A stretch of 64,000 nucleotides of DNA from positions 15,373 to 79,372 of the forward strand of contig BTUM01000032.1 of assembly GCA_045863235.1 (NCBI GenBank). The letters run 5' to 3'. Every line of letters starts with the position of its first letter. Position 1 is the stretch's first letter. The position numbers were made by a program. Positions 27,001 through 33,000 of this stretch are shown in pieces. This DNA comes from Candidatus Xenobia bacterium. GTDB lineage: Bacteria > Vulcanimicrobiota > Xenobia > Xenobiales > QWHO01.

Positions 27001-30000
27001 CAGAGCCTGCAAAGCTTCATTCTGACCGGCTCCATCGAGCGCGCCTCCGAGCCCAACGCCACTCGCAACGTGGCCACCCTGGTCGCTCCTGACGGCGAGC
27101 TTCTGGCCACCGCCGAGAAAATCCGGCTGGTGCCATTCGGCGAGTATCTGCCGTTGCCCCGTTTCATGCGCGACTGGCCGATCTTCGACCGGGTCATGCG
27201 CTACGTTCCCGGCACGCAGCACGTCATTTTTCCCGACCCCACATCCTTTGGCGTTCTCATCTGCTACGAGTCCATGGTGCCTCACGAGCCGCGCAAGAAG
27301 GTCGAGCGTGGTGCCGGGGTGCTGGCTGTGATCACCAACGACGCCTGGTTTGGAAAGTCGTCGGCCGCCATGCACCACTTCGAGATGGCCATCATGCGGG
27401 CGGTGGAGATGCGCAGGCCGGTCGTCCAGTGCGGCAACAACGGTATCTCGGGCTTCATCCTTCCGACCGGCGAGGTGATGGTCGAGTCGGGTCTCGATGA
27501 AGTCGTTCAGTTGACCCGTGAGGTTCGGCCCGAGACCTACCGAACGATTTACAGCCGTACTGGCGATCTGCTGGCTTATCTGTGTCTGGCCATGATGCTC
27601 TGGCTCATCAGGTTGCAGTTGGGCGAGCGAACGCAATGCGTGAAGAGCTGACCCGGCTTGAAAGAGTCTTCCTGGCGATGATCGCCCGGGCCCAATCTCT
27701 GACCCAGCTCGAGCAAACGAACCGACACATCTTTGGGCGACGTGGCCAGCTGACTCTTGCGCTGCGTTCGCTGCGCGATTGCCCGGAGAGGGAGCGACCG
27801 GCTCTGGGAAAGCTCGGCAACCGGATCAAGGAGAGCCTGCAACACGCCATCGGGCAGAGACGCGAGGAGTTGCGCCAGGTCAGCCAGGTCCAGCGCCTGG
27901 AGTTCGAGCAGCTTGATGTCACCCTGCCAGGCATTCGGCCCGTCAGTGGACGCCTTCATCCCCTGCGCGAGCTGGAAGCGGAAAGCGGTCACTGGCTTCG
28001 TCTGCAGGGCTTCCTGCCCGCGCGGGTTGGACCCCTGCCGGATCGGCTGGGGGAATTGAGTGGGCGGCGCTACGGCTCTCGGCTGGTCTGCAGCCCTGAA
28101 TGGGGAGGCTGGGGGCATCAGGAAGGGATGCCCACTCCTCCCGTCGACCCGGCCTGCGGACACCTGCTGGAGGCGATTGCCACGGGTGAGCAGTGGACTG
28201 TCGGTCAGCTCAAGGGCTGGCTGGAGACCTGGGGCAGGCAGTTCCTGGGCTATGTTTCGCTTCGATGCGTTCCCGGCTCGGTTACGTGGGCCAGCCCTTC
28301 GCTGCACCTGCTGGGGCCTTTCCGGGGGGGCTGGCTGGCGGTTGCCAGCGCCGGCCTGCTCGAGCACGGGGCCTGCCTGGCAATCTCTCTCGAGCGGGCC
28401 GCGGCCGTTCGCTACAATCTCGACCCGGGTGTCTTTCAATCCCTCGACTGGCGTTTCGTGGCTCAATTCTGATGCGAGTACCGTTTGTCTGGCTCAAGGA
28501 GTATGTCGAGATTTTCGAGCCCCTGACTCAGGTTGCCGAGGAAATCAGCTCGCTGGGCTACCCGGTGGCCGGGACCGGAACCGTGGGAGCACCCGTGCGC
28601 GGCGTTCTGGTGGGTCAGGTGAGCAGTATCGCGCCTCACCCCAAAGCCGATTTGATGAAGGTTTGCCAGATCGATCTCGGAGACGAAGGAGAAGCCCAGA
28701 TCGTGACCACGGCTGGGAACGTGCGCCTGGGGCAGAAAGTCGCTGCCGCCTTGCACGGAGCGGTTCTGGCCGGGGGAACTCGCATCAAGCGAGGGCGCTT
28801 GCGCGGGGTTCTCTCCGAGGGAATGCTGTGCTCGGCTGACGAGCTGGGTCTGTCGGCTCTCGACCTGCCCCACGAGCAGCGTCACGGACTCATCGAGATG
28901 CCCGAGCAGAGCGAGCCGGGAACTGATGTCATGGACCTGTTGGGCCTGGACCAACAGGTGATCCTGTTGACGCCCTGGCCGGAACGAAACCCCGGTGGGC
29001 TGATTGGACTCGCACGTGAGCTGGCGGTTCGGATGGAGCGAAGCCTCGAGAGCCCCTCTCTTGCTCCGGCCGAGACCAGCGCTACGGGCTGGTTCGAAGA
29101 GCCCGATCCGGCTGCCGTCTGCGAGCTCGGAGTCTGCCTGCTGCAGGGCGTCAAGCTCGAGCCTTCCCCGGCCTGGATGGCTCGTCGCTTGCGAGCAGCC
29201 GGGCTGCATACGGTCATGAACGTGCTCGACATCGTGCGCTACGTGATGGTGGAGACCGGTCAGCCCTTGCACGTCTATGATCTGGACCGACTGCGACCTC
29301 CGCTGAGTATGCGCCCAAGCACGCCGGGCGAGTCCCTGCGGCTTGGAGAGACGGTGCGCGAGCTTCCTCCTGGCACCTGGGTGGTCTGCGACGGGAGAGG
29401 CCCCGTAGCTGTTGCCGGTGTGGCTGTGGGCAGCGATTTTCAAGTGCATCCCCGGACCCGACGCGTACTGGTCAAGGCGGCTCGCTATCGGCCAGGCCTG
29501 GTAGAGGAGAACGGTCGCCTCCTGGGGGTCGCTACGGAGTCGTCGCGGCGCTTTGTGGCTGGCCCCCGGGGCAGCCACCTGACCCTGGCTCTGCAGCGCG
29601 CGAGCTGGTTGCTTCAGAGGCTGGCTCGGGGGCGATTGCAGGCCGTACAAAGCTGGCGCTGTGACGATCAACCCGAGTTTGAGCTCGACCCGGCCTTTCT
29701 CGAACGCCATCTCGGGCCTCTTGACTCGGGCTGGCTCGACCAGGCTCTGGTGGCCGCTGGTATCGGCTATCATCGAGTGGGCAGCCAGTTGCGAGTGAGC
29801 GTCTCGGCTCACCGGGTCCTGGAGGACCTGGTGCGTCTTCGCGGGGTGGACCGTCTCGAAGCAGTGCCTGCGACCCTGCGGGCCTCCCCAACCGATGAGC
29901 TGGATGTGCGACGTCGACTGGCGATGATGGGATTTTCGGAAGTGGTGTCCGGCTCTCTGCCTCAGCCCTGGTTGGGATTGCTCGAGCTGGCTGGTCGGCG

Positions 30001-33000
30001 CGGTCAGGACGAGCTAAGGCTGATGGAGCAGGTCGAGAGTGAGCTTTGTTTGCTGGTTTCGGGACACGATTCAGCCTATCTTCACTTGAAAGGTCTTCTT
30101 GAAATGCTTGCCGAACTCGCCCAGGCCGAGCTGTCTTTCGAGCCTGCCGAGTTGCCCTGGCTGCACCCGGGTAGCTCGGCGAAGATTAGCCTGGGTAATG
30201 CTCCTCTGGGCTGGTTGGGGGAGCCGCATCACGGGCACGAGGACCGGGTTCAATCGACCCTCGCGGTAGCACTCATCGACAAGGAGCGACTGGCTGCTCG
30301 AGCCCGCCCTCGGGGGCTCTTCAATCCGGATGAAGTCCGTTGGGTCGAGCGAGATCTTGCGGTGCTGGTGCCCGAGCAAGTCTGGGCCGGGAAGGTAGTC
30401 GACCAGGCCCGTCAGGCAGGGGGGGCCATGCTGGTTTCGATCCGGTGCTTCGACGTCTATCGAGGGAGCCAGATTCCCGAGGGATGGAAGAGTCTGGGGT
30501 TGAGGATCAGGTTGCAGTGCGATCGGGAGGCCGAGATCAAGTCCATTCTGGGCCGGATCCTGGGGCAACTGGAACAGAATCTTGGTGCTCGCTTGCGGGC
30601 TTGAAGGAAGGAGGAACGTATGACCGGCCTCGATATGCTGCTGCTGATCTTGATCGTCGCGTTTATCTATCTCGGTTACCGCCGAGGCGTGATCGGCGAG
30701 GCATTCGATATCATTACCGGCATCGTGACGGGCATCGTCGGGGTCATCGTCTACGCTCCCCTGGGAAAGATGATCGATCAGTGGACCGAATGGGGAGTCG
30801 GCCCATCTCAATGGCTGGCTTTCTTTCTGGTCGGGTGCCCGGTGGCCGTGTGCCTGTTGATTCTCGGCATGCACCTCGATCGAATCGCCCGCGATGACAA
30901 GAAGATTCCCGACGCCATCATGGCCTATGGTGGGCTCTTCTTGAGCATCTTCAAGTCTCTGTTCGTGCTCTGGCTGGCCCTGATGCTGCTGAAAGCGAGT
31001 CCTCTTTACAGCAAAACGACCCGTGAAGAGTTTACCAATGCTCCCGTCGTCAATTTCATTGAAGATACTGGCGGAACAGCCGGGAAGGCCATCTTCGGCG
31101 TCATGGCACCGGGCAATGTCCAGAAGCAGTTGGGGCCCTTCCTGCAATCGGGATTCTAGGAGGATGGCCTGCTGGTTGCTCAAGAGTGAGCCCGAGGTAT
31201 TCTCCATCGACGACCTTCAGCGCAAGAAGGTCGAGGGCTGGGACGGTGTGCGCAACTACCAGGCGCGCAACTATCTCAAGAGCATGCGCAAGGGCGATCA
31301 AGCCTTCTTCTATCATAGCCGTGAGAAGCCCCCGGGCATCGTGGGGATCTGCAAAGTAGTGCGCACTGCTTACCCTGACGATACGGCCAGCAATCCCAGG
31401 AGCCCCTATTATGATCCTCGCCACACTGCCGAAAACCCTGTCTGGTTTCGGGTGGACGTCGAGTTCGTGGAGAAGTTCTCGCGCTTGCTCTCCCTCGATG
31501 AGCTCAAGGCTACCCGTGGCCTGGAGCAGATGGTCGTGACGCGCAAGGGCAGTCGCCTTTCGGTGCAGCCAGTGACACCGAAGGAGTGGAAGACTGTGCT
31601 CAAGCTGCTCGAGTCGTGATCGAGCTGGTTCTGGTGCGCCACGCGCAGCCGATGTGGGAACCCGGTGGGCGGGCGGTGGACAACCCTGAGTTGACCGAGT
31701 TGGGACTGCAGCAGGCCAACCGGTTGGCAGAGTGGCTTTCGGGCGAGCACTTTGACGCCTTCTATTGCAGTCCCTTATTGCGTTGCCGCCAGACGGCCGC
31801 CCCTCTGGAGGCCCTCTGGCGGCGCTCGTGCACCATTTTGAGCTGGTTGGAGGAGATCAGGCTGCCCACCCTGGAGGGCCAACCATCCGCCCAGGTGCAC
31901 GAGTTTCTGGCTCAAGTTCGAGCCCGCGACCTGGAAGATTGGTGGGAGGGGGCTCCAGGCGGGGAGTCCTTTCGCCACTTTCACGAGCGAGTTGTGGGTG
32001 GTCTGGAGCCCCTGCTGACTCGCGACCATCGCGCGGAGCTGCACTCCGAGGCTTCCTACCGACTGTGGCAGGTACCTTCGGAAAGCGAGCGCATTCTGGT
32101 GGTGGCCCACGGGGGCACGATCGCTGTCATGCTCAGCTTCTTGCTCGGAATCGAGCCGGTTCCCTGGGAGTGGGAGCGTTTCAAAGTCGGCTGGTGTGGC
32201 CTGTCGGTCGTACGCTCGGTCGAACTGGCTACGGGAGCTCTGTGGTCTCTGACCAGTTTCAATGCCCGCGGCCACCTGGCCGGGCTACCCGACCCATGGG
32301 GTTAACGGTCAGGGAACCTCGATCTTCCAATCGGTCAGTTCGACGGGGGGGGTGAGCTTGGCGCCCGAGGCTCGAAACTGGACAAAGACCGAGCTCTTTG
32401 CGGGTAAGGCGACGTCTCTGGCCGTGAAGAAGTATTCGGTCACCGCTTCTTCGCCTTCGCCCAGAACCTTCTCGGTCCGTTCCATCTTGGTGTAGGCGGC
32501 GCTGGAGCCGGCCTCATCGACCACACGATATTCCAGATCCTCGACGATCGGTTTCTCATTGCCCCAGTCTCCCAGGCCGTTGTTGGCCTCAAGGGTCACC
32601 TTGCCGTTGCTCGGGGGCCAGGGAGACATCTTGACGGACAATTCCGAGTCGTCGGAAAGCTGCCAGAAGGTTTCCGATGGCTTCTCTTCTCCGCTCTGGC
32701 TGGAGTCAGGAGCGGGGGGCGAGGAGCAGCCCAGGAAAAGCATGGCAGACACGAGCACGGTGAGCAATCTTCGCATGCCTGGCTTGATGCGACGGACCTT
32801 CGGCAGGGTCCTTTTTCAGGGATTTTTCAGGGCTTGTGCATACAACAAGCGGGCTTTCTGGGGTTCTGTCCCCCAGCAGCAATCTCTCGATCGAGGAGCA
32901 CTCATCATGGTCATCACCCAGACTGCCCCCCAGCTCAACGCCGTCCGCGCTGCCTCCAGCGCCCCGGTGGAGGCTCCTCCGGACCAGGACAAAGACCAGG

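What a model noticed while it worked through the whole genome (the two positions that open the first line are those of the whole stretch)
27636..30604. Archaeal-type PheRS has displaced the bacterial one, which survives as a catalytically dead pheS-pheT operon under purif [...]
The native pheS (g03737, 278 aa) has lost the motif-2 loop, the FPFTEP motif and part of motif 3, yet it and pheT stay open and conserved. A complete archaeal/eukaryote-type PheRS (C37:57922-61271) does the job. The class shows three stages: bacterial enzyme only (f3, f5), both with the bacterial one dead (f1), archaeal-type only (f2).
Evidence so far: Alignment with intact orthologues shows deletion of KCYRRD..EFHQ and loss of FPFTEPS in 5 of 5 f1 genomes; dN/dS 0.06-0.17 against 4 congeners. 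pheS query: 4 of 4 f1, 0 of 16 f2, 19 of 19 f3; archaeal-type alpha full length in 3 of 4 f1 and 13 of 16 f2 (two more partial), only weak hits in f3/f5; pheT full length in both f1 genomes tested, absent from 5 of 6 f2.
(Added by a program. Inside this text positions count along the whole contig: contig position 15,373 is position 1 of the stretch shown here. "Call 12" and the like, gene names such as g00115 and contig names such as C1 are that model's own, and its searches are not shown. The text may have been shortened before it was handed on; [...] marks where a part breaks off. The agent that wrote the report below was given it as the finding of a first reader that could run no searches.)

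Follow-up and report, generated by a model that had tools for sequence, protein, structure and literature searches.

The report
Dead phenylalanine-tRNA synthetase kept under selection
An uncultured bacterium charges phenylalanine tRNA with an imported archaeal-type enzyme, yet keeps its own original two-subunit enzyme with both the charging and the proofreading sites destroyed and the tRNA-gripping parts preserved, so the old enzyme has probably taken on a new, non-catalytic job.

Summary
Confirmed and extended. Window 27636-28472 (pheS*, 278 aa) and 28472-30604 (pheT*, 710 aa) are the native bacterial PheRS genes of an Eremiobacterota (Vulcanimicrobiota) lineage, still in their ancestral operon. 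Alpha has lost motif 2, the FPF loop, the motif-3 glycines and the zinc knuckle. New here: beta's proofreading site is also gone (N254R, G318V, E334K, R244H in 7 of 7 copies), so trans-editing is unlikely. The alpha coiled coil, the B2 OB-fold and six of six anticodon-contact residues of B8 are kept. dN/dS is 0.06 and 0.10, like neighbouring genes. A complete archaeal-type PheRS (C37), of a clade that other bacteria also carry, does the charging. One import in the f1+f2 ancestor had two fates, not three stages: f2 deleted the genes (native slot empty in 5 of 5 checked), while f1 kept them after a burst of change. A 48%-identical dead copy shows the state is old. Best reading (0.5): a non-catalytic tRNA-Phe-binding pseudo-synthetase; its downstream role is not shown. 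Nine literature searches found no such bacterial case; this scan noted a parallel dead PheRS pair in an archaeon (unchecked here).

The parts
25403..26218 (-). Divergent gene of no Pfam family (called lipoX here); synteny anchor of the native locus
   Evidence: lies next to lnt or cvpA in f1, f2 and f3
26047..27651 (+). lnt, apolipoprotein N-acyltransferase; its end overlaps the pheS* start by 16 nt
   Evidence: Pfam LNT_N and CN_hydrolase; sequence
27636..28472 (+). pheS*, degenerate bacterial PheRS alpha, 278 aa
   Evidence: dN/dS 0.061
27636..27899 (+). alpha N-terminal coiled coil (tRNA-elbow-binding arm), kept
   Evidence: PF02912 54.6 bits; 11 of 16 class-invariant positions kept; block pLDDT 82-94
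28104..28118 (+). new invariant GGWGH motif in place of the ancestral WDSF stretch
   Evidence: invariant in 11 of 11 rows and in the 48%-identical P0253
28137..28403 (+). remnant catalytic core: motif-2 Arg and Phe deleted, FPF loop replaced, CxxC-CxxC knuckle deleted, motif-3 glycines lost (Glu-Arg kept)
28472..30604 (+). pheT*, degenerate bacterial PheRS beta, 710 aa
   Evidence: dN/dS 0.097
28592..28927 (+). B2 OB-fold RNA-binding domain, the best-kept part
   Evidence: PF01588; 21 of 26 class-invariant positions kept; dN/dS 0.057
29072..29641 (+). B3/4 fold kept, editing residues changed (E. coli numbers R244H, N254R, G318V, S322F, E334K; H265 kept)
   Evidence: residue roles from PMC8599791 and PMC3553970 passages
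29642..30316 (+). B5 with the R-x-D..E-x-D stretch deleted, and B6-7 shortened from about 198 to 145 residues
   Evidence: no PF03484 match
30317..30601 (+). B8 anticodon-binding domain with D628, F660, D661, Y663, S674 and R709 kept
   Evidence: PF03147 62 bits; invariant in 7 of 7 dead rows; contact residues
30620..31159 (+). cvpA-family membrane protein; synteny anchor
   Evidence: PF02674

Best explanation
After an archaeal-type PheRS operon entered the common ancestor of f1 and f2, the native pheS-pheT no longer had to charge or proofread. In f1 it went through a burst of deletions that removed both catalytic sites and was then fixed under ordinary purifying selection as a pseudo-synthetase. 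Shown: origin, losses, retention and selection. Inferred: the alpha*/beta* complex still assembles and grips tRNA-Phe from outside (anticodon by B8, elbow by the alpha coiled coil, extra RNA contact by B2) without acting on it, as a tRNA-Phe chaperone, buffer or sensor. The invariant acid- or amide-to-base changes in the old editing pocket (E334K, N254R) would suit binding a free, uncharged CCA end, which makes a sensor or store of uncharged tRNA-Phe my preferred sub-case. No output partner was identified.
For: Native origin: same operon as f3; dead beta is sister to f3 beta, SH-aLRT 100, on a 0.83 substitutions-per-site stem. Catalysis lost: 25 of 115 class-invariant positions of the alpha catalytic part kept and 32 deleted; editing residues changed in 7 of 7 dead rows against 0 of 11 intact. 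tRNA-contact parts kept: coil 11 of 16, B2 21 of 26, and 6 of 6 listed anticodon contacts although only 9 of 18 B8 class-invariants survive. Selection: 0.061 and 0.097, against lnt 0.054 and an intact f3 pheT pair 0.093. Age: P0253 at 48% identity has the same deletions. Assembly: model score 0.72, best of 3 controls 0.00; the mark was reached by 116 of 157 solved and 2 of 215 mismatched pairs; runs agree in at least 88% of contacts, partner pLDDT at least 80. Like complexes are solved and intact homologues were in the alignments, so this may show likeness only. The cognate tRNA-Phe(GAA) is present, single copy.
Against: No binding or expression was measured. B8 is among the faster-evolving parts within the dead family (dN/dS 0.127; 56-59% identity between G000 and the distant copies), while the remnant alpha core and B1 are more constrained, which tRNA binding alone does not explain. 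Invariant residues are not enriched in the modelled alpha/beta interface (Fisher p 0.23-0.57). f2 lives without the pair with the same U20 tRNA-Phe. Cross-subunit tRNA binding needs the (alpha-beta)2 tetramer, which was not modelled, and B6-7 has lost about 53 residues.
Confidence: 0.5

Rival explanations
1. HisZ-like or scaffold role: the dead complex acts through a protein partner or another nucleic acid, and the anticodon residues are kept for structural reasons.
For: The most constrained parts are B1 (0.031), the remnant alpha core (0.045-0.053) and B2 (0.057). 72 alpha positions are invariant in the dead family and differ from all intact orthologues, including GGWGH. HisZ and SLIMP act through partners (PMC9437257 passages).
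Against: 6 of 6 anticodon contacts and the coil are kept. No new gene sits beside the operon; its neighbours are ancestral.
Confidence: 0.23
2. Cofactor of the imported enzyme: it supplies in trans the B2, B8 and coil functions that archaeal-type PheRS lacks, and hands it a bacterial U20 tRNA-Phe.
For: Archaeal and eukaryal PheRS use G20 while bacteria use U20 (PMC9976931 passages), and f1 tRNA-Phe has U20. B2 domains are found fused to archaeal-type TyrRS in bacteria (PMC5370408 passages). f1 also keeps a stand-alone MetRS OB domain.
Against: All 13 f2 tRNA-Phe genes called have U20 too, with no bacterial pheS in 16 of 16. Five genomes of three other families with an archaeal-type alpha have no B8 match.
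Confidence: 0.11
3. Retooled enzyme: the remnant class II core or the rewired B3/4 pocket catalyses a different reaction.
For: Motif-3 Glu-Arg, H176 and E179 are kept, and a new invariant GGWGH motif is present. H265 and T/S354 are kept in B3/4.
Against: The motif-2 Arg and Phe are deleted. Segments 131-151 and 157-168 around the old site have pLDDT under 50 even with homologues. No accessory gene nearby.
Confidence: 0.08
4. Trans-editing factor that clears Tyr-tRNA-Phe made by the archaeal-type enzyme.
For: The B3/4 fold, H265 and the tRNA-Phe recognition parts are kept.
Against: E334 (reads the Tyr hydroxyl), N254, R244 and G318 are all changed in 7 of 7 rows (roles). The imported beta has its own B3/4 match.
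Confidence: 0.04
5. Slow decay: a functionless relic whose frames stay open because of operon coupling to lnt and cvpA.
For: Long stem branch. GC3 is lower than in leuS and the imported genes (0.75 and 0.71 against 0.88-0.89). f2 deleted the genes.
Against: dN/dS is 0.03-0.16 in every domain at dS 0.24-1.13. No stop in any f1 pheT match. Alpha length is 277-278 aa in all 11 rows. lnt and cvpA have the same GC3.
Confidence: 0.04

Closest known systems
Bacterial (alpha-beta)2 PheRS (PDB 3pco, 4p71, 7k98, 1eiy)
   Same: Direct ancestor; same genes, order and domain string; all listed fold-search hits are PheRS entries.
   Different: Aminoacylation motifs, zinc knuckle, editing residues and part of B5 are lost; both subunits fall below NCBIfam cut-offs.
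Spirochaete archaeal-type PheRS replacement (PMC3191353, passages seen)
   Same: Both subunits of an archaeal-type PheRS replace the bacterial enzyme in one lineage.
   Different: There the bacterial form is described as replaced, with no relic mentioned in the passages seen. Here it survives dead in one daughter lineage, and the named nearest relatives of the incomer are bacterial (Deltaproteobacteria, Myxococcales labels).
SLIMP (insect mitochondrial SerRS paralog) and HisZ (PMC9437257, PMC7373986, passages seen)
   Same: Aminoacylation-dead synthetase paralogs with new roles; SLIMP keeps tRNA binding.
   Different: Single-gene paralogs of other synthetases. Here a two-gene heteromer lost two active sites after displacement by a foreign gene. 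The review's table, as far as seen, has no PheRS row.
Editing-defective Mycoplasma mobile PheRS (PMC3553970, passages seen)
   Same: Degenerate GVMGGxxS editing motif.
   Different: That enzyme still charges tRNA and is the only PheRS.
fars-3-derived toxins of Caenorhabditis tropicalis (PMC12680543, abstract only)
   Same: Repurposed copies of a PheRS subunit.
   Different: Eukaryotic, single subunit, selfish toxin-antidote elements; nothing here points to a toxin.
Dead second PheRS pair in an archaeon (scan notes e1-6884470, e1-6884482; unchecked AI notes)
   Same: Both sites reported dead, pair kept under selection beside a working PheRS.
   Different: Archaeal-type fold in an archaeon; if right, an independent origin.

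Membership tests
Active bacterial PheRS | alpha motif 2 (xRRD...FHQ) with the catalytic Arg | tested here: not met
   R197, R198, D199 and F209 columns (G035 numbering) are gaps in 11 of 11 dead rows
Active bacterial PheRS | FPF loop and glycine-rich motif 3 | tested here: not met
   FPFTEPS replaced, GFAFGMG replaced, only Glu-Arg kept
Active bacterial PheRS | beta editing residues R244, N254, H265, G318, E334, T354 | tested here: not met
   4 of 6 changed in 7 of 7 rows; H265 kept, T354 is T or S as in some intact rows
Active bacterial PheRS | B8 anticodon contacts (T. thermophilus D696, F728, D729, Y731, S742, R780) | tested here: met
   D628, F660, D661, Y663, S674, R709 invariant; mapped by motif spacing, the last within one residue
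Active bacterial PheRS | alpha N-terminal coiled coil and B2 OB-fold | tested here: met
   PF02912 and PF01588 above cut-off
Active bacterial PheRS | alpha/beta assembly into (alpha-beta)2 | tested here: inconclusive
   Heterodimer model passes (0.72, best control 0.00) but may rest on solved likenesses; tetramer not modelled
Active bacterial PheRS | measured aminoacylation | not testable with these tools
   needs an assay
Archaeal-type PheRS (C37 pair) | PRK04172 and TIGR00471 above cut-off, with intact FRRE, FHQ, FPYTEP and GLERL motifs | tested here: met
   533 vs 350 and 491 vs 283 bits; motifs located
Stand-alone PheT-like families in NCBIfam (YtpR, TapR) and the PheS-related ligase SrmL | score above the curated cut-off | tested here: not met
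   YtpR 93.9 vs 100 and TapR 56.5 vs 120 on B2 only; no SrmL match for alpha* at E 0.1
Aminoacylation-dead synthetase paralogs (HisZ, SLIMP kind) | synthetase fold without catalytic motifs, kept by selection beside an active enzyme | tested here: met
Aminoacylation-dead synthetase paralogs (HisZ, SLIMP kind) | a demonstrated partner or regulatory output | not testable with these tools
   none identified

The most novel reading that the evidence does not exclude
A whole displaced two-subunit synthetase was converted into a dedicated reader of uncharged tRNA-Phe, a bacterial amino-acid-starvation sensor or tRNA store built from a PheRS shell (functionally like the synthetase-derived sensor domain of GCN2, a comparison recalled and not tested here). 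With the archaeal case noted by this scan, pseudo-PheRS would be a recurrent, undescribed class, implying that ordinary PheRS has a second, non-catalytic function that can be split off.
Probability: 0.2. Interest if true: 0.88.

Novelty: new variant of a known kind. Interest (0 to 1): 0.7.

Why it matters
Replacement of a synthetase by a foreign one normally ends in loss of the old gene. That is seen here in f2 and suggested for three other families of the phylum (no B8 match in 5 of 5 genomes). f1 instead keeps about 3 kb of a doubly dead enzyme under selection comparable to its neighbours'. It is a natural separation-of-function mutant: whatever it still does is a function of bacterial PheRS that has nothing to do with charging or proofreading, and it can be tested with two recombinant proteins and one tRNA. 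It also warns that pheS and pheT, common marker genes, can be non-orthologous or dead in this lineage.

Tried and rejected
tRNA co-adaptation: I expected G20 in f2 and U20 in f1; all 37 genomes with a tRNA-Phe call, of 40 examined, have U20, so the helper model lost its main support. Expression: 7 runs listed; 4 laid are contigs with thin, even cover of the whole stretch, which cannot be told from DNA; inconclusive. Interface conservation: no enrichment. Folding alpha* on dead copies alone gave pLDDT 48.8; the usable model (75.4) leans on intact homologues. Promoter and terminator scan: at chance level. The C-terminal pheT piece in f2 genome G006 follows a run of N near a contig end and is intact-type, not dead-type; I treated it as a probable stray piece and did not resolve it. 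The G018 and G020 hits are weak B3/4 matches. dN/dS against G022 is saturated for most genes and was left out of the pooled values. IQ-TREE omega was not parsed and was replaced by my own pairwise GY94 fit; for lnt IQ-TREE gave about 0.076 on all five genomes against 0.054 pooled. The careful RpoB tree did not finish; the quick tree is reported. A scan look-up by the pheT* sequence found nothing.
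Full report
Observation. The window carries lnt (26047-27651), then a 278-aa frame starting inside the end of lnt (27636-28472), a 710-aa frame coupled by TGATG (28472-30604) and cvpA (30620-31159). The 278-aa protein matches PheRS alpha well only over its first 115-130 residues; its catalytic Pfam domain scores below cut-off. The 710-aa protein has B2, B3/4, a piece of B7 and B8, but no B5 match. Record titles place close relatives in Eremiobacterota/Vulcanimicrobiota, though 2 of 4 titles read 'uncultured Burkholderiales'. The class name Xenobia is recalled and also appears in a scan note.

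The working enzyme. The only PF01409 match in the genome (97.6% complete) is at C37:59760-60575. It belongs to a 509-aa alpha followed by a 609-aa beta; they pass the PRK04172 and pheT_arch cut-offs and the alpha has intact class II motifs. Their GC3 (0.89, 0.88) equals that of leuS and dN/dS is 0.018 and 0.009. The 120 best relatives listed are 61-97% identical, and those that carry organism names are bacterial, so the immediate donor was probably another bacterium; I did not identify it.

What alpha* lost. Of 145 columns invariant in 13 intact class proteins, 41 are kept in all 11 dead rows (some rows are near-duplicates). By region: 11 of 16 in the first 98 residues, 5 of 14 in the next 42, and 25 of 115 in the catalytic part, where 32 are deleted. 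The deletions include the motif-2 Arg and Phe and the CxxC-CxxC knuckle; FPFTE and the motif-3 glycines are replaced, while the motif-3 Glu-Arg stays. In their place 72 positions are invariant and unlike any intact row. A model built with homologues (pLDDT 75.4) keeps a confident coil and a shrunken sheet with low-confidence active-site loops; its listed fold-search hits are all PheRS.

What beta* lost and kept. With numbering from the Salmonella chain alignment and residue roles from PMC8599791 and PMC3553970 (passages), R244, N254, G318 and E334 read H, R, V and K in 7 of 7 dead rows and are unchanged in 11 of 11 intact rows; H265 is kept. The B5 stretch R-x-D..E-x-D is deleted (its role in binding the interface magnesium is recalled; the ion itself is mentioned). 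B6-7 is 138-145 residues against 198-231. In contrast B2 keeps 21 of 26 class-invariant positions. The six anticodon contacts named in PMC8136816 and PMC9976931 (passages) map by spacing to D628, F660, D661, Y663, S674 and R709, all invariant, although only 9 of 18 B8 class-invariants survive.

Selection. A pairwise GY94 fit pooled over three congeners (dS 0.3-0.8) gives 0.061 for pheS* and 0.097 for pheT*. Controls: lnt 0.054, cvpA 0.039, lipoX 0.067; intact f3 pheS 0.022-0.028 and pheT 0.093 for the unsaturated pairs. By domain: B1 0.031, alpha core 0.045-0.053, B2 0.057, coil 0.075, B6-7 0.104, B3/4 0.108, B8 0.127, B5 0.160. The pairs share G000, so they are not independent. Alpha* thus evolves two to three times faster than an active alpha but far from neutrally.

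History. In f3 (G035, G040) the order is lipoX, lnt, pheS, pheT, cvpA, as in f1. In f2, lnt abuts cvpA (G007, G010; about 63 bases between aligned ends), or lipoX abuts cvpA (G005, G013, G015): 5 of 5 checked, of 16. PF02912 is found in 0 of 16 f2 genomes and PF03147 in 0 of 5. On RpoB (30 of 44 genomes, quick tree) f1 and f2 are sisters (98), with f3 next. Archaeal alphas of f1 and f2 fall in one clade of 89 of 137 tips that also holds unnamed rows (0.978, midpoint root). Dead beta is sister to f3 beta (100) on a 0.83 stem. So the evidence fits one import, deletion in f2, and rapid remodelling followed by stasis in f1. A profile search of 1.84 billion representatives found 2 proteins at E 1e-30 or better: the f1 cluster and P0253, a partial protein labelled Candidatus Eremiobacterota, 48% identical, with the same deletions and GGWGH. 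The family is therefore old but narrow. Elsewhere in the phylum 12 of 207 genomes outside the class (families f13, f14, f19) carry a distant archaeal-type alpha (33-40% identity); 0 of 5 tested have B8, which is the usual outcome.

Mechanism. The pattern is selective: both catalytic sites are gone while the three tRNA-touching modules are kept. These are also modules that the archaeal type lacks (the anticodon domain; B2 and the coil by the domain matches). The two chains are modelled as a complex (0.72, best of 3 controls 0.00; mark reached by 116 of 157 solved and 2 of 215 mismatched pairs; contacts agree at 88% or more; partner pLDDT 80 or more), but solved PheRS complexes exist, so this may show likeness only, and invariants are not concentrated in that interface. 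I therefore favour a non-catalytic tRNA-Phe-binding complex (0.5). Rivals: protein-partner scaffold (0.23), cofactor of the imported enzyme (0.11), retooled enzyme (0.08), trans-editor (0.04), decay (0.04). The cofactor idea was tested through tRNA position 20 and not supported: U20 in 37 of 37 called genes. Against the favoured reading, B8 evolves faster than the alpha remnant, and no expression evidence was obtained.

Known systems and novelty. Archaeal-type PheRS in bacteria is known (PMC3191353, passages), and dead synthetase paralogs are known (HisZ, SLIMP; PMC9437257, PMC7373986, PMC5388404, passages). Nine searches of the open library showed no report of a retained dead pheS-pheT pair; two searches returned nothing. 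Subscription journals are mostly outside the library and no supplements were read, so a listing in a genome paper's tables cannot be excluded. Two earlier scan notes describe a dead PheRS pair in an archaeon (unchecked). Verdict: real, a new variant of a known kind, interest 0.7.

Noticed in passing
G000 C70:1022-1402 (L183) and C5:188354-190024 (L188): Mirror case for MetRS. f1 has a 557-aa PRK00133-type MetG without an OB domain (f3-f5 also give only weak hits to the f2 type), while f2 has a different 655-aa PRK12267-type MetG with a fused OB domain. Own genome plus 3 of 4 other f1 genomes carry a stand-alone OB protein (127 aa in G000) 70-72% identical to the f2 tail.
   Followed up: partly
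G000 C37:57922-59751 (L107): The imported archaeal-type beta has a CxxC...CxxC insertion near its N-terminus.
   Followed up: no
G000 C1:207006-207060 and C1:215225-215273: Two 3' fragments of tRNA-Phe downstream of the intact gene (C1:153090-153165), like attachment sites of tandem integrated elements.
   Followed up: no
G000 C125:9193-9501 (L004): Stand-alone B3/4-domain protein in a 221-aa open frame, a possible trans-editing factor.
   Followed up: no
G051, G052, G057, G058, G062, G063, G066, G067, G069, G070, G072, G074: Three other families of the phylum carry a distant archaeal-type PheRS alpha (33-40% identity to the C37 protein), probably separate imports.
   Followed up: partly
G000 genome-wide tRNA scan: ARAGORN calls several tRNAs with A34 or unusual anticodons (Val AAC, Gly ACC, Ala AGC, Arg GCG) and a second, atypical tRNA-Tyr at C12:70091-70181; not verified.
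   Followed up: no
window 54962-55035: tRNA-Gln(TTG) gene.
   Followed up: no
L115 (G033:C7:14949-15454): Three tandem tRNA-Asp/tRNA-Phe repeats in one f3 genome.
   Followed up: no
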